Origin: Escherichia phage vB-Eco-KMB43
Strand: one strand, 5' to 3'
Length of the DNA: 64,000 nt
Sequence record: OR525698.1
The translations under genes were made by a program, and so were the position numbers. This document shows positions 34,733 through 39,194 of this stretch, piece by piece. The notes beneath the pieces are model-generated. The model ran no database searches. It was not told the origin of the DNA and worked only from the letters and a program-made list of their open reading frames with translations. The number at the start of each line of letters is the position of its first letter. Position 1 is the first letter of the stretch.

Positions 34733-36976
34733 TTACAGCTTACAGGATGAACACTCGCTAGCGTCTTCCGTACCATCTGCACCGTCGCGAACGTTCGCAT
34801 AATACAGGGTTTTCAGACCGTAATATTGAGCAAACAACATATCATCTAACACATCAGCAATATCGACTTTACCAGTCTTATAAGTGCTTGGATCGTATGA
34901 TGTATTGGAACTAATCGCCTGATCCACAAACTTCTGCATGATCGCTGCCAGTGTCAGATAAGGCTTGTTACCTTTCTTGATCAGTGTCCAAAGCAGGTCA
35001 ATAACATCAGCATTATTCTCTACGTTCGGAATAACCTGATTAAATTGCCCTTCTTTCGATCCTTTAACCGATACAATCCCGCGAGGCGGTTCAATACCAT
35101 TTGTGCTGTTAGACACCTGAGAAGATGACTCACAAGGCATCAGCGCCGAAAGCGTACTGTTACGAATGCCATATTTTTTCAGGTCTTCGCGCAGTTCTTC
35201 CCAATCCATCTCATACACCGGATCAACCAGTTCATCTACTGTCTTTTTGTACCAGTCGATAGGAAGTTCACCGCGACCGTAGCGTGTTTCGTGCATCAGT
35301 TCGCAAGCACCCTTCTCTTTTGCGAGTTGCACACTAGCCTTAATCAGAGCATATTGCAAGCGTTCAAACGTTTTATGCGTAAACTCGTTAGCGTCTTCAT
35401 ATGTGAAGAAATTATCTGCTAGATATGATGCAAAGTTAGTAACACCAACGCCCAGAGAGCGACGTTTTTTGGCTGTCAGAGCTTGTTCTACAGGATAATC
35501 CTGATAATCTAACAGGTTGTCAAGTGCACGCACCATAACCATAGCAATGCGTTCTACTTCTTTCATGTTTTCGATATCGAAATTACCTAAAACATATGCT
35601 GCCAAAGTGCATAGGCTGATCTCTGAATCATCACGACCCATCGGTTTAGTAGGCAGTGCAATTTCACAACACAGGTTAGATTGTTTAATCGGTGCTACAT
35701 TACGAATAAACGCCCCGTGATTGTTCATGTTGTCTGTGAACGTTGGGTAGATTCGACCAGTGTTAAAACGTTCAATTGCCACCGCTAAAAACAGGTCTTC
35801 GGCTTTAACACGAGTTTTACGAACACTCGGATCTTTTTCCAGTTTTTCGTAAAGCTGGCGGAAACCTTCCTCATCTCGGAAGTACAGATCCCACAACAAG
35901 CCACCTGCAACATCTGGACTAAACAGAGTAATGTAATCCCGTTTAAGGAATCGCTCTACCATCAGGTTATTAATCTGTACGCCGTAGTCAAGATGGCGAA
36001 TGCGGTTATCTTCCACGCCCTTATTGTTCTTTAACACAATCAGACTTTCAAACTCTAAATGCCACATTGGGTAATAGAGTGTCGCTGCCCCGCCACGAAT
36101 ACCGCCTTGTGAGCATGACTTAACGGCAGTCTGAAAATGTTTCCAGAATGGGATAACGCCAGTATGACGAACTTCACCATGCCCGATCTTAGATCCTTCC
36201 GCGCGAATCATACCAGCATTGATACCGATACCAGCACGCTTGCTAATATACTTGATGATTGCATTTGCTGTTTCGTTGATGCCCTGCAATGAATCATCAG
36301 ATTCGATCACCACACACGAACTAAATTGGCGTGTTGGGGTACGCACACCTGCCATAATCGGAGTAGGCAGAGAGATTTGCTTATTCGCAACAGCATTATA
36401 AAAATCAATCACATGTTCAAGTCGATTTTCTGTCTCTTCTTGATGCAAGCACATACCGATCAGCATATACGCAAATTGCGGTGTTTCGATGATTTTCTTA
36501 GTGCTGCGATCCTGAACAAGATATTTCTCTTTTAACTGCATCGCACCAGCATAGGTCATTTTAAAATCAAGTTTATGGTCGATGAATTTCTCCAGATATT
36601 CCACTTCTTCACGGGAATATTTTTGCAGAATTTCGCGATCATATTTTCCGGTTGCAATATTACGCTCAATATGGCTATAAAAATCAATAGGTTGGAATTG
36701 ACCGTATACTGATTTACGAAGCGCGAACATTGCAAGGTTACTTGCTACATATTGATAATCAGGTGTTTCTACAGTAATGTTATCTGCGGCGACCTTAATC
36801 AATACTTTCTGGATATCATTGGTAGACATACCTTCTGTCAGAAGTGGTTCAACCATATCAAACAATTCATATGGATCAACGTTATGACCTTCGGCTGCCG
36901 CTTCCAGAATTTTCATTACTTTTTCTTTTTCAAACGGAACAGTCAGACCGGAAGACTTAACAACATTTTTAATCAT
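34733..36976 (-). CDS. nrdA: ribonucleotide reductase class Ia alpha subunit
   Basis: 747 aa, ATP-cone N-terminus, active-site NLCCEI, C-terminal CSSCKL. Confidence 0.9.
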   Translation of the reverse strand: MIKNVVKSSGLTVPFEKEKVMKILEAAAEGHNVDPYELFDMVEPLLTEGMSTNDIQKVLIKVAADNITVETPDYQYVASNLAMFALRKSVYGQFQPIDFYSHIERNIATGKYDREILQKYSREEVEYLEKFIDHKLDFKMTYAGAMQLKEKYLVQDRSTKKIIETPQFAYMLIGMCLHQEETENRLEHVIDFYNAVANKQISLPTPIMAGVRTPTRQFSSCVVIESDDSLQGINETANAIIKYISKRAGIGINAGMIRAEGSKIGHGEVRHTGVIPFWKHFQTAVKSCSQGGIRGGAATLYYPMWHLEFESLIVLKNNKGVEDNRIRHLDYGVQINNLMVERFLKRDYITLFSPDVAGGLLWDLYFRDEEGFRQLYEKLEKDPSVRKTRVKAEDLFLAVAIERFNTGRIYPTFTDNMNNHGAFIRNVAPIKQSNLCCEIALPTKPMGRDDSEISLCTLAAYVLGNFDIENMKEVERIAMVMVRALDNLLDYQDYPVEQALTAKKRRSLGVGVTNFASYLADNFFTYEDANEFTHKTFERLQYALIKASVQLAKEKGACELMHETRYGRGELPIDWYKKTVDELVDPVYEMDWEELREDLKKYGIRNSTLSALMPCESSSQVSNSTNGIEPPRGIVSVKGSKEGQFNQVIPNVENNADVIDLLWTLIKKGNKPYLTLAAIMQKFVDQAISSNTSYDPSTYKTGKVDIADVLDDMLFAQYYGLKTLYYANVRDGADGTEDASECSSCKL

Positions 36977-37024
36977 ATTACCTCACTTCATATTTTAGCA
37001 GGAACAAGTTTTATCCTCCATATT

Positions 37025-37045
37025 GGGGGCTTTCGCCCCCTTTGT
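37025..37045. terminator. GC hairpin GGGGGC-TTTC-GCCCCC between td and nrdA (terminator-like)
   Basis: Perfect 6 bp stem; T-run only on plus strand while genes are minus; function uncertain. Confidence 0.3.
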
Positions 37046-38278
37046 TTATACTGCCATTTGAGCGGTGATCGCTGGATGGCTTTGATAGTTGTGAATTTTA
37101 AAATCTTTCGGAGTCTTTGTCAATACCTCATCTAAAGATTTAAATTCCGGCAACTCAATTGTTGGTTTATCAAACGGAACACGGCTTAACTGTTCCATAA
37201 CTTGATCAAAATGGTTTTTGTAAATGTGAGTATCTCCACCAGAGAAAATCAGTTCTCCTACCTCAAGATCACACATTTTCGCTATGATGTGAGTTAACAG
37301 CGCATAGCTGGCGACGTTAAAGGGCAAGCCCAAAAAGCTGTCTACGCTTCGCTGAAACCACATACAAGACAGTTTACCTTCATTGACGTAGAATTGTACG
37401 AACGGATGACATACACCCAATACAGCATTATGTGTTCCTTGTACGTTCCATGAGTCAATGATGATACGTCGATCCGTTGGATTGTTTTTAATTTGTTCAA
37501 TCACGTTTTGTAACTGGTCTTCCCAAATCTTCGGGCGATAGACATATTCTTCATCGTCTTTAGTGCTTGATGTGTCTACGTCCATACTAACAAACATCGT
37601 GGTATCCGGTGCTATAATATCCCCACCCAGATAATCACTATCAAGCAGATAACCGAAATAACCATCATCTACCCATTCCTGGAATCCCCACAAGCAATAT
37701 GCATCATTAACAAAATTAGATTGAGTCTTCCAGTGGTCTGCTACTAAGAATTGATTATATTCAGAATCAAACTCTTCATAACGCATACCACGCCAGATAG
37801 CACATAAACGGTCTTCTGTGTCATTAGTTGGCGTAAAGTCTTCTACCCACGGGTGCTTAAATGTATGTGTATATTTGCTCTTAACGCGCTTAATTTTGAT
37901 TTCACCATGTGGATGAATCGGTTTGCGTCGCCACGCCATACCATACATATTTCCGACATTATAACCATTGAATCGCAATGGATTCTTTTCTTTCATATCA
38001 AGACAGTTGCCGCGCCAAATATCAAAGGCTTCCTCGTCAAACTTGCCGCGTGTAATTTCCTGTAAGCGACGGCGGTCAAGTGATCCCTCCATAAACCATA
38101 GCAATTCGCCAATTACAGAGGCTGTAGCCATCTTTTTAGTGGTCAGTAATGGGAAACCCTTGCTTAAATCAATTCGCATCTCTGCGCCGAATTTAGAGAG
38201 CGTACCTACCCCCGTGCGGTCTTCACGAGGACAGCCATTATCAAGAACATCACGCAATAGTTTCAAATATTCTTTCAT
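37046..38278 (-). CDS. td: thymidylate synthase with ~125 aa in-frame insertion
   Basis: N-terminal DRTGVGT, FPLLTTKK; catalytic region RRIIIDSWN...CHPFVQFYV...LGLPFNVASYALL; 410 aa versus ~286 in T4. Confidence 0.8.
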   Translation of the reverse strand: MKEYLKLLRDVLDNGCPREDRTGVGTLSKFGAEMRIDLSKGFPLLTTKKMATASVIGELLWFMEGSLDRRRLQEITRGKFDEEAFDIWRGNCLDMKEKNPLRFNGYNVGNMYGMAWRRKPIHPHGEIKIKRVKSKYTHTFKHPWVEDFTPTNDTEDRLCAIWRGMRYEEFDSEYNQFLVADHWKTQSNFVNDAYCLWGFQEWVDDGYFGYLLDSDYLGGDIIAPDTTMFVSMDVDTSSTKDDEEYVYRPKIWEDQLQNVIEQIKNNPTDRRIIIDSWNVQGTHNAVLGVCHPFVQFYVNEGKLSCMWFQRSVDSFLGLPFNVASYALLTHIIAKMCDLEVGELIFSGGDTHIYKNHFDQVMEQLSRVPFDKPTIELPEFKSLDEVLTKTPKDFKIHNYQSHPAITAQMAV

Positions 38279-38519
38279 CCCACATCACCTTTTTCTTATT
38301 GATTGCTTTCTTACGCAGTTTTGCTACTGTCTCGTCAATGTCTATAAAGATAACACCACGGTCGAATATAGTAGCAGGTCTTGATATATCGCTATTTTCT
38401 TGCACAGGAAGCCATGATGCGCTCGCTTCATCATAGAGATATTGTAAACCGTAATAATCTACGGCTACTGCGTAGTTTTCACTGGTAGCTGACCATAATT
38501 GAATAATACCGACTTTCAT
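38250..38519 (-). CDS. hypothetical protein
   Basis: ORF between frd and td; ATG 38519 overlaps upstream stop (TAATG). Confidence 0.4.
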   Translation of the reverse strand: MKVGIIQLWSATSENYAVAVDYYGLQYLYDEASASWLPVQENSDISRPATIFDRGVIFIDIDETVAKLRKKAINKKKVMWDERIFETIA

Positions 38520-38611
38520 TATTGTTCCCGTCCACAATGTAAACACCGACTACCAGCAAACATCAAAGATTCACCACAATGTTTGCACTCATAATCTGTC
38601 AGAATTTTCAT
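38519..38611 (-). CDS. tiny zinc-ribbon peptide (30 aa)
   Basis: MKILTDYECKHCGESLMFAGSRCLHCGREQ; coupled to frd stop. Confidence 0.3.
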   Translation of the reverse strand: MKILTDYECKHCGESLMFAGSRCLHCGREQ

Positions 38612-38612
38612 G

Positions 38613-39194
38613 TTACGCCTTCTTACGTTCTAAAATTTGTTCGCTGATCAGGTAATCATCAAGGAAGTAATTATGTTCTTCTTTTGTTGCAAAGTCAAAA
38701 TATAATTCCTGAATCATTTCCTTAGAGATGCCAACATCATATTCAAACGGATCATTAATTCCTGATCGTTGAACATACGTTAACACAATACGGTCCGCAA
38801 AGTCAACTGCTTTTTCAATCAGGGAAGGTCCGCCAATAACGCTTACCAAACCTTGCAATTTCTCTATGACTTCTAATAATTCCTTCAATCCACCATCATT
38901 AGTAATCGCGGTATACACATCTGGTTGGTCGCCGTTTTTTGCTTTCGGTGCTGGCTTACTGGTATCGGTGCTAACAACCACATTCACACGGCCTTCCAGT
39001 GCTTTAGGTAGACTTTCAAAGGTATTACGTCCCATTACAACCGCCGCAAGATCAACATCTCCCATAGTGCGCATTTTAAAGTTTTCCATGTCCTTTTTGA
39101 TTGGACGTCCCCACGGTAAACCGCCTTTAAAACCAAAAGCCCAATTTTCATCTGACATTTTAGTATCACCAATCGCAAATACACATTGAATCAT
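38613..39194 (-). CDS. frd: dihydrofolate reductase
   Basis: 193 aa, GLPWG motif, same length as T4 Frd. Confidence 0.85.
   Translation of the reverse strand: MIQCVFAIGDTKMSDENWAFGFKGGLPWGRPIKKDMENFKMRTMGDVDLAAVVMGRNTFESLPKALEGRVNVVVSTDTSKPAPKAKNGDQPDVYTAITNDGGLKELLEVIEKLQGLVSVIGGPSLIEKAVDFADRIVLTYVQRSGINDPFEYDVGISKEMIQELYFDFATKEEHNYFLDDYLISEQILERKKA

What the first reader, a model, noticed from the sequence alone, without database searches (positions are those of the whole stretch)
37546..37933. Thymidylate synthase carries a ~125 aa in-frame insertion
The td product is 410 aa versus ~286 aa in T4 and ~264 aa in E. coli. The N-terminal and catalytic regions are canonical (DRTGVGT, FPLLTTKK, RRIIIDSWN, CHPFVQFYV, LGLPFNVASYALL). 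Between the YGxxWR segment and the SRR segment there are about 125 extra residues (RKPIHPHGEIKIKRVKSKY...YVYRPKIWE) with no intein termini and no frame disruption. This differs from the T4 td group I intron, which is absent here.
Basis: partly seen in the sequence, partly recalled or inferred. Interest (0 to 1): 0.55.

Follow-up and report, generated by a model that had tools for sequence, protein, structure and literature searches.

The report
Dead endonuclease fossil inside thymidylate synthase
The extra 136 amino acids in this RB49-like phage's thymidylate synthase are the eroded, inactive remnant of a homing-endonuclease-like module that, in many other phages, sits intact and in frame at the same surface loop of the enzyme with no intron or intein to remove it.

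Summary

The insert is neither intron nor intein. It is homologous (tblastn E 5e-12; 70 bits to an HMM built from long forms only) to a ~245-aa module found at the same TS site in at least 78 diverse phage TS clusters. The same module occurs in thousands of free-standing or intron-encoded phage proteins annotated as HNH endonucleases (phrog_2081).

Most TS-embedded copies (44 of 78) keep all six near-invariant module residues. The window's copy keeps none, and it has lost the beta-rich module and the HTH-like tail. It still folds confidently and is under weak purifying selection (dN/dS about 0.2-0.3, against under 0.08 for the core).

Best reading: a fossil of a splice-free, in-frame homing-endonuclease-like invasion, tolerated in a permissive loop. 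I found no publication describing it. Nuclease activity of the intact relatives is inferred, not shown.

The parts
37046..38278 (-). td gene, 410-aa thymidylate synthase including stop codon
37928..38278 (-). TS N-terminal core, residues 1-117, ending in the YGMAWR motif
   Evidence: Aligns to E. coli TS 1-82 and onward. Invariant R21, E58, Y112, W116, R117. Residues 83-117 are of the type that co-segregates with insert-bearing TSs.
37520..37927 (-). The 136-aa insert (residues 118-253): degenerate endonuclease-like module
   Evidence: Translation. One contiguous block. tblastn E 5e-12 to the phiKp_21 TS insert. 70 bits to an HMM built from long forms only. 0 of 6 near-invariant family residues kept. 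dN/dS 0.13-0.65.
37889..37924 (-). N-linker beta strand (residues 119-130) of the insert
   Evidence: AF2 strand E119-130, predicted to pair with E245-253. The motif (R/Q)KPxxPHG..I.R is conserved in long and short inserts.
37574..37819 (-). Eroded core of the module (residues 154-235): long helix, short helices and two beta strands; the third element (helix) of the beta-beta-alpha unit is missing
   Evidence: Translation. AF2 elements H153-170, H181-193, H199-204, E210-213, E228-231. Changes relative to the family: C->Y167, Y deleted, K->S214, Y->I222, S->A223, C->T227, N->D235.
37520..37546 (-). C-linker beta strand (residues 245-253, YVYRPKIWE)
   Evidence: AF2 strand E245-253. (Y/H)V(Y/V)RPxI(W/Y) is conserved across long and short inserts.
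37046..37519 (-). TS C-terminal core, residues 254-410 plus stop, with the catalytic Cys290
   Evidence: Aligns to E. coli TS 110-264. Invariant D254, Q255, R270, C290, H291, R310, D313, N321, H351, Y353.

Best explanation
The insert is a molecular fossil. An ancestor of this T4-like td gene was invaded, in the surface loop right after the YGxxWR motif, by a ~245-aa homing-endonuclease-like module read in the same frame as TS. The module consists of a beta-rich domain, a W..M..RCY / LDKD...YS..TC.F...N nuclease-like domain and an HTH-like tail. No intron or intein is involved. The loop tolerates a passenger, and two conserved linker strands form a beta ribbon that holds the module away from the enzyme, so TS still works. 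After fixation the module decayed in this lineage. The beta-rich domain and the tail were deleted, and every near-invariant polar or cysteine residue of the family was replaced. What remains is a compact 136-aa folded nub. Shown here: homology, same-site residence in many TS lineages, loss of the signature residues, an intact TS core, a confident fold and weak purifying selection. Inferred: the intact relatives are active site-specific nucleases that spread by homing; the original event was such a homing; and the nub persists mainly because it must still fold for the essential enzyme around it to fold.
For: Homology: the insert alone hits the same-site inserts of the Klebsiella phage phiKp_21 TS (E 5e-12, 94% coverage) and the Vibrio phage D181 TS (2e-5). 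An HMM built only from long inserts scores the window Td at 70.1 bits over residues ~130-235.
Same site, many hosts: 54 of the top 150 family representatives are TSs with the module at TS profile position ~117-121, and 78 insert-bearing TSs were found overall.
Presence/absence: P0024 (552 aa) and P0029 (276 aa) lie in syntenic DHFR-TS loci at 78% nt identity and differ by a 276-codon block exactly between WR.W and DQL.
Flank co-segregation: residues 83-117 and 254-290 are 59% and 57% identical among insert-bearers, against 36% and 42% to empty TSs. Distal segments show no such difference.
Decay series: 44 of 78 copies keep 6/6 signature residues. P0007/P0008, from a T4-like phage with the same frd-td-nrdA-nrdB order, are full length but score 2/6. 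All 125-142-aa inserts score 0-1, and the window scores 0/6.
TS intact.
Fold and selection: pLDDT about 90-98 across most of the insert. dN/dS is 0.13-0.65 in the insert against 0.00-0.08 in the core for the six td genes with non-mosaic C-terminal cores.
Against: The filled/empty pair is only 78% identical, so gain and precise loss cannot be told apart.
Flank co-segregation could reflect co-adaptation rather than co-conversion, and the 'empty' comparison set comes from one clade.
Purifying selection, persistence across several T4-like lineages at 51-61% TS identity, and convergent reduction to the same-sized remnant in two lineages (an NJ tree without bootstrap support) would also fit an acquired function.
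Confidence: 0.7

Rival explanations
1. Exapted domain: the remnant descends from the endonuclease-like module but now does a job for the phage. It might tether TS to DNA or to partners of the dNTP-synthesising complex, or modulate access to the nearby folate site.
For: dN/dS is well below 1 (0.13-0.65). The fold is predicted with high confidence. The short form is retained in several T4-like lineages at 51-61% TS identity, in the same gp32-frd-td-nrdA context. Two lineages independently arrived at the same 125-145-aa remnant, and no insert of 34-124 aa was seen. Motifs such as DAYCLWGFQEWVD and APDT are conserved in short forms.
Against: Constraint is at least several-fold weaker than on the TS core. 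There is an indel polymorphism inside the insert within one genus. All family-invariant polar residues are lost, and the positions that survive are mostly hydrophobic core. Most TSs, including the insert-less relatives in this data set, work without the insert. Needing to fold inside an essential enzyme is enough to explain purifying selection.
Confidence: 0.22
2. Still-active mobile element: the window's insert is itself a working, minimal homing endonuclease.
For: It is homologous to a family found in introns and as free-standing genes between or inside phage genes. Recombination mosaics break at or near the insert in JSE and P0002.
Against: 0 of 6 near-invariant residues are kept. The beta-rich module, the HTH-like tail and the helix of the beta-beta-alpha unit are gone. 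All 58 Krischvirus records already carry it, so there is no empty target within the genus. No other family member is encoded in the 64-kb window that could act in trans.
Confidence: 0.03
3. Ordinary lineage-specific elaboration of the variable TS small domain, like the ~50-aa insert of Lactobacillus casei TS, unrelated to mobile elements.
For: The region between E. coli residues ~82 and 110 varies in length among solved TSs. L. casei, E. faecalis and S. aureus chains carry about 50 extra residues before the DQ motif. P0027 and P0034 have 28-33 aa at exactly this site.
Against: There is significant sequence homology to the endonuclease-like module. The graded series from intact to eroded forms sits at the same site.
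Confidence: 0.03
4. An intein or a translated-through group I intron that is removed after transcription or translation.
For: T4 td has a group I intron, and phage nucleotide-metabolism genes are frequent intein and intron hosts (PMC2988022).
Against: No Rfam hit at E<=1 in window 36500-39000, and none in five long-insert loci. The ORF is uninterrupted, with protein-level conservation from linker to linker. There is no Hint/intein Pfam hit. The junctions read WR|RKP and IWE|DQ, which lack an N-terminal Cys/Ser and a C-terminal HN+Cys/Ser/Thr. The two ends are predicted to pair as a beta ribbon continuous with TS.
Confidence: 0.02

Closest known systems
ShiLan domain: a non-splicing, actively homing insertion in a mycobacteriophage DNA methylase gene (Arsenault, Gosselin & Gogarten 2025, PMC11855218)
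   Same: An insertion in a phage enzyme gene that leaves the host reading frame open. It has no detectable intron or intein features, is predicted to stick out of the host protein on connecting strands, and is distributed like a selfish element.
   Different: In ShiLan the HNH endonuclease is encoded out of frame inside the insertion, and the in-frame product is a featureless hairpin. Here the endonuclease-like module is in the host frame and becomes part of TS. The window contains no sizeable alternative-frame ORF. The window copy is also a dead remnant, whereas ShiLan is reported as actively homing.
phrog_2081-type 'HNH endonucleases', intron-encoded in Bastillevirinae DNA polymerase genes (PMC11878797) and free-standing in many phages
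   Same: The same protein module: long TS inserts match phrog_2081 at E 1e-39 to 1e-20 over profile positions ~14-254. Free-standing relatives share the W..M..RCY and LDKD...N signature.
   Different: Those genes are separate ORFs, in intron loops or between genes, with their own DNA-binding C-terminal domains. Here the module is fused on both sides into TS. The window copy matches phrog_2081 only at E 0.069 and lacks the signature residues.
Inteins with embedded homing endonucleases
   Same: In-frame residence of a homing-endonuclease-type domain inside a conserved host enzyme at a conserved motif, followed by a decay cycle towards smaller elements.
   Different: There is no Hint splicing domain and no splice-junction residues, so the passenger stays in the mature protein.
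T4 td group I intron with I-TevI; defunct I-TevIII (PMC2988022, PMC2790892)
   Same: The same host gene family in T4-like phages, and the same life cycle of invasion, fixation and endonuclease decay.
   Different: A different element type (RNA splicing) and a different endonuclease family (GIY-YIG). From my memory of the T4 td exon structure, not tested here, the insertion position is also different. No intron is present in the window.
Lactobacillus casei-type small-domain insert of ThyA
   Same: Extra residues in the same variable, surface-exposed part of TS.
   Different: It is about 50 aa long. From my memory of the L. casei sequence it lies just upstream of YGxQWR rather than after it, and it has no relation to the endonuclease-like module. 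Neither point was tested here.

Membership tests
Thymidylate synthase ThyA (PF00303) | Profile match above the curated cutoff | tested here: met
   284 bits against a cutoff of 24.3, in two stretches. E 7e-69 to E. coli TS.
Thymidylate synthase ThyA (PF00303) | Catalytic Cys in the (P)CH motif plus the dUMP-binding arginines, and Asn177, His207 and Tyr209 (E. coli numbering) | tested here: met
   C290-H291, R21, R270/R271, R310, D313, N321, H351 and Y353 fall on invariant columns. The mapping to E. coli numbering comes.
Thymidylate synthase ThyA (PF00303) | TS fold | tested here: met
W..M..RCY / LDKD...N endonuclease-like module (phrog_2081, phrog_953, phrog_374) | Significant sequence or profile similarity | tested here: met
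   tblastn E 5e-12. 70.1 bits to the long-forms-only HMM. The PHROG hit itself is only E 0.069.
W..M..RCY / LDKD...N endonuclease-like module (phrog_2081, phrog_953, phrog_374) | Six near-invariant polar/Cys residues (C, Y, K, Y, C, N; 94-99% conserved in 148 representatives) | tested here: not met
   0 of 6: Y167, deletion, S214, I222, T227, D235.
W..M..RCY / LDKD...N endonuclease-like module (phrog_2081, phrog_953, phrog_374) | N-terminal beta-rich (Tudor/SH3-like) module and C-terminal HTH/NUMOD-like tail | tested here: not met
   Occupancy 0.13 and 0.09 in the window, against about 1.0 in intact forms. Alignment.
Canonical HNH / beta-beta-alpha-Me nucleases | Match to an HNH profile and a catalytic His on strand 1 | tested here: not met
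   No Pfam HNH hit for the window insert, the long inserts or the free-standing relatives. The family has Lys, and the window Ser, at that position.
Canonical HNH / beta-beta-alpha-Me nucleases | Beta-beta-alpha fold similar to solved HNH enzymes | tested here: inconclusive
Intein | Hint domain and splice-junction residues (N-terminal Cys/Ser/Ala; C-terminal His-Asn followed by Cys/Ser/Thr) | tested here: not met
   No Hint/intein Pfam hit. The junctions are WR|RKPIH and KIWE|DQL.
Group I intron (as in T4 td) | Ribozyme core detectable by covariance model, and an interrupted reading frame | tested here: not met
   No Rfam match at E<=1. The 410-codon ORF is continuous.
ShiLan-type insertion (hidden out-of-frame HNH) | An endonuclease ORF in an alternative frame of the insertion | tested here: not met
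   Alternative-frame ORFs overlapping the insert region are 25-70 aa; a 138-aa ORF starts just past it, over the N-terminal core. The module HMM hits only the td frame among 417 stop-to-stop ORFs.
Active homing endonuclease gene | Site-specific cleavage of the empty allele and super-Mendelian inheritance | not testable with these tools
   Only indirect evidence for the intact relatives: the same site in diverse TS lineages, a filled/empty pair and flank co-segregation.

The most novel reading that the evidence does not exclude
The intact relatives of this fossil represent an undescribed way of life for homing endonucleases. The nuclease sits in frame in a permissive surface loop of an essential enzyme (TS), is made as part of that enzyme, needs no intron or intein, and spreads by cutting insert-less td alleles. 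RB49-like phages carry the end state of that life cycle, possibly exapted.
Probability: 0.45. Interest if true: 0.78.

Novelty: new variant of a known kind. Interest (0 to 1): 0.6.

Why it matters
Homing endonuclease genes are thought to survive inside essential genes only by hiding in self-splicing introns or inteins, or by sitting between genes. This td gene, in a long-studied coliphage group, preserves the remains of a different solution: the module stays in the finished protein, parked on a beta-ribbon stalk in a loop that tolerates cargo.

The intact versions are numerous: at least 44 diverse TS clusters keep a complete signature. They give a directly testable system, in which purified TS either cuts an empty td allele or does not. 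They also point to a very large nuclease-like domain family (about 14,750 cluster representatives) with no Pfam model and no solved structure.

For phage annotation, this explains why Krischvirus Td is 410 aa, and why same-site relatives are labelled 'HNH endonuclease' or 'hypothetical protein' when they are TSs. For protein engineering, it marks a natural insertion-tolerant site in TS.

Tried and rejected
1. The search for homologous proteins with the insert alone returned nothing because of the word-index limit. The full-length query worked.
2. Pfam gave no credible hit on the window insert, three long inserts, four free-standing relatives, or 89 further relatives beyond a few NUMOD-like/AP2 hits.
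3. A profile search of PDB sequences found nothing. Foldseek against the PDB found nothing significant. The afdb50 library was not available.
4. Intron hypothesis: Rfam was negative for the window and for five long-insert loci.
5. ShiLan-type hidden out-of-frame ORF: none found.
6. Kioshi versus Hobo was examined as a possible recent filled/empty pair. It turned out to be a whole-gene replacement by a very divergent TS-family protein, so it is not a clean test.
7. The 237-aa ORF splitting nrdA in L020 was checked as a possible family member. It is a canonical HNH enzyme and unrelated.
8. Literature: the T4 mobile-element review, two T4-related genome papers, a jumbo-phage survey and a Bastille-like TS paper do not mention the insert.
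9. Residue numbers printed were offset by 11 because the alignment was trimmed. They were corrected.

Full report
WHAT IS THERE

The window is a Krischvirus (RB49-like T4 relative). The td region is 98% identical to RB49 td, and the local gene order is gp32, frd, a 98-aa ORF, td, nrdA. The td ORF (37046..38278, minus strand) encodes 410 aa. Pfam PF00303 and E. coli TS both align in two pieces: residues 1-82 and 254-410 of the query match E. coli residues 1-82 and 110-264.

In a 29-sequence alignment the excess is one contiguous block of 136 residues between W116-R117 (the YGxxWR motif) and D254-Q255. The insert-less P0029 has 5 residues there. The block is window 37520..37927.

WHAT IT IS NOT

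- There is no group I intron signal in the window or in five loci with longer inserts.
- There is no Hint/intein profile hit, and the junctions WR|RKP and IWE|DQ lack splice-junction residues.
- There is no sizeable alternative-frame ORF of the ShiLan kind (PMC11855218).

WHAT IT IS

A tblastn search with the insert alone finds, besides all Krischvirus genomes, three proteins:
- a 517-aa 'hypothetical protein' of Klebsiella phage phiKp_21 (E 5e-12, 94% coverage);
- a 477-aa 'HNH endonuclease' of Vibrio phage D181 (E 2e-5);
- the 548-aa 'thymidylate synthase' of Bacillus phage Kioshi (E 6, not significant on its own).

All three are themselves TS-family proteins split by a larger insert at the same site. 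A wide protein search adds about 25 insert-bearing TSs of 401-613 aa.

The alignment shows the anatomy of the long (~245-aa) insert:
- an N-linker;
- a beta-rich module;
- a core with the signature W..M..R(C/V)Y ... W..F.NF ... LDKDYYGSN.YSP.TC.F.....N;
- a beta-hairpin plus helix tail;
- a C-linker.

The window's insert keeps the two linkers and an eroded core only. An HMM built solely from long forms still scores it at 70 bits, so the homology is secure.

NATURE OF THE MODULE

Long inserts match PHROG families annotated 'HNH endonuclease' (phrog_2081, E 1e-39 to 1e-20). According to PMC11878797, phrog_2081 proteins are encoded in loops of group I introns in Bastillevirinae DNA polymerase genes. 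In that paper they carry only DNA-binding signatures and no recognised HNH catalytic signature.

A profile of the inserts finds 14,753 cluster representatives at E<=1e-3 among 1.84 billion proteins. Of the top 150:
- 54 are TSs with the module at TS profile position ~117-121;
- 7 are partial TSs;
- 89 are free-standing or tandem forms.

Of those 89, five also carry the I-HmuI NUMOD-like domain and one carries AP2. None has a Pfam model over the core.

So 'homing-endonuclease-like, probably a beta-beta-alpha-Me variant with Lys for His' is a supported inference, not a demonstrated activity.

EVIDENCE THAT THE MODULE MOVES

(i) It occupies the same loop in TSs from very different phages: T4-like, a Klebsiella Alcyoneusvirus phage (phiKp_21), Vibrio phages, Bacillus Herelleviridae and many metagenomic lineages.

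(ii) There is a filled/empty pair. P0024 (552 aa) and P0029 (276 aa) lie in syntenic DHFR-TS loci with 78% nt identity and about 90% identical TS flanks. They differ by a 276-codon block exactly between YGVxWRxW and DQL. On a tree of the distal TS core, P0024 groups with the empty P0029 rather than with P0025 (NJ tree, no support values).

(iii) The TS segments adjoining the insert (residues 83-117 and 254-290) are much more alike among insert-bearers (59% and 57%) than between them and empty TSs (36% and 42%). Distal segments do not differ (53-57%). Against P0007/P0008 the window's residues 83-117 are 83-86% identical, but residues 1-82 only 48-50%. This looks like co-conversion, though co-adaptation is an alternative.

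THE DECAY SERIES AND THE WINDOW'S PLACE IN IT

Six polar or cysteine positions are 94-99% conserved across 148 family representatives (numbering corrected). Among 78 insert-bearing TSs:
- 44 keep all six and 14 keep five;
- P0007/P0008 are full length but keep only 2/6. They come from a T4-like phage with the same frd-td-nrdA-nrdB order as the window;
- P0020 is internally deleted and keeps 1/6;
- every insert of 125-142 aa keeps 0-1.

The window keeps 0/6. The changes are C->Y167, Y deleted, K->S214, Y->I222, C->T227 and N->D235. It also lacks the beta-rich module, the tail and the helix of the beta-beta-alpha unit. The window copy therefore cannot be a working member of the family.

Short relics occur in at least two separate TS clades: the window's clade of T4-like phages (P0002-P0006; contexts), and P0009/P0013 within the otherwise intact phiKp_21-type clade.

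SELECTION ON THE FOSSIL

Seven Krischvirus td genes were compared.
- dN/dS is 0.00-0.08 in the TS core and 0.13-0.65 (mostly 0.2-0.3) in the insert. The core figure excludes the mosaic C-terminal segment of JSE, where dN/dS is 0.14-0.18.
- dS is similar in the two regions.
- A 4-aa indel segregates within the insert.

The insert is therefore constrained, but at least several-fold less than the enzyme. This fits a passenger that must fold so that the essential enzyme around it folds. It does not exclude a modest acquired function, and I carry that as the main rival at about 0.2.

MECHANISM PROPOSED (steps marked)

- Shown: an in-frame, unspliced 136-aa domain sits on a two-stranded stalk in the loop after YGxxWR. 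It is homologous to an endonuclease-like module that is intact at the same site elsewhere. Its signature residues and accessory modules are lost. The TS core is intact.
- Inferred: intact embedded modules are made as part of TS and cut or nick empty td alleles near the conserved YGxxWR/DQ codons. They are copied in by recombinational repair together with the adjoining td codons. After fixation the nuclease decays by point mutation and then by in-frame deletion. The stalk and a foldable core remain, because imprecise deletions would damage TS.

NOVELTY

I found no description of this insert in the T4 mobile-element review, two T4-related genome papers, a jumbo-phage survey or a Bastille-like TS paper. 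The nearest precedent, the ShiLan domain, is a non-splicing homing insertion whose HNH is encoded out of frame. I rate the finding a new variant of a known kind: homing-endonuclease genes, here with a splice-free, in-frame residence. The window itself holds an inactive relic.

LIMITS

- No biochemical data exist for the module family.
- The fold assignment is weak.
- The tree has no support values.
- The 'empty' comparison set is one clade.
- The literature search covers open-access papers only.

Noticed in passing
L013:350-1573 (phage JSE td) and protein P0002, compared with window 37046-38278: td is mosaic. In JSE the N-terminal core and the insert are close to the window (dS about 0.1), but the C-terminal core is very divergent (dS 0.74-0.99, dN 0.13). 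P0002 shows the same pattern (99-100% / 84% / 82% identity). The recombination breakpoint lies at or near the insert.
   Followed up: partly
window 37755-37766 (codons 172-175, SEYN): A 4-codon indel polymorphism inside the insert among Krischvirus phages. RB49 and the window have SEYN; Phi1, phiS, G2494, JK32 and JSE lack it.
   Followed up: yes
window 38250-38546 (-): A 98-aa ORF (homologue of RB49ORF236c, hypothetical) lies between frd and td and overlaps the td start by 29 nt. Function unknown.
   Followed up: no
L020:4689-7876: In a T4-like metagenomic contig that also carries a short-insert td (P0005), nrdA is split into 476-aa and 324-aa ORFs. The splitter is a 237-aa canonical HNH endonuclease ORF (L020:6196-6909) with a faint I-HmuI NUMOD-like hit. 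It is not a member of the td-insert family.
   Followed up: yes
L003:1790-3436 (Bacillus phage Kioshi gene 41) versus L022:1774-2643 (phage Hobo): Kioshi's 548-aa 'thymidylate synthase' is a very divergent TS-family protein: it has no DRTG motif, and ECAW replaces PCH. It replaces the ordinary 289-aa TS of its close relative Hobo, with no DNA similarity across the gene, yet it carries the same module at the same site. It may not be a dTMP synthase.
   Followed up: partly
L004:1872-2468 (Escherichia phage alia gp039): A free-standing member of the module family (62 bits) sits between 'DNA polymerase I' (noted as part I) and a nucleotidyltransferase ORF. This suggests a polymerase gene split by this endonuclease-like gene.
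   Followed up: no
L002:2641-4074 (Vibrio phage D181) and L001:2455-4008 (Klebsiella phage phiKp_21): These two TS genes are misannotated in GenBank as 'HNH endonuclease' and 'hypothetical protein'. Both are full TSs (PF00303, E 1e-47 and 1e-87) carrying the embedded module.
   Followed up: yes
proteins P0027 and P0034 (alignment A1, columns ~230-540): Otherwise 'empty-type' TSs have 28-33 residues between WR and DQ. They could be the last remnants of an insert or unrelated loop growth.
   Followed up: no
proteins P0136, P0138, P0184, P0188, P0256, P0227: Some insert-bearing TSs show a second gap of about 25-40 residues at TS profile position ~166-170, which suggests a second insertion hotspot in TS.
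   Followed up: no
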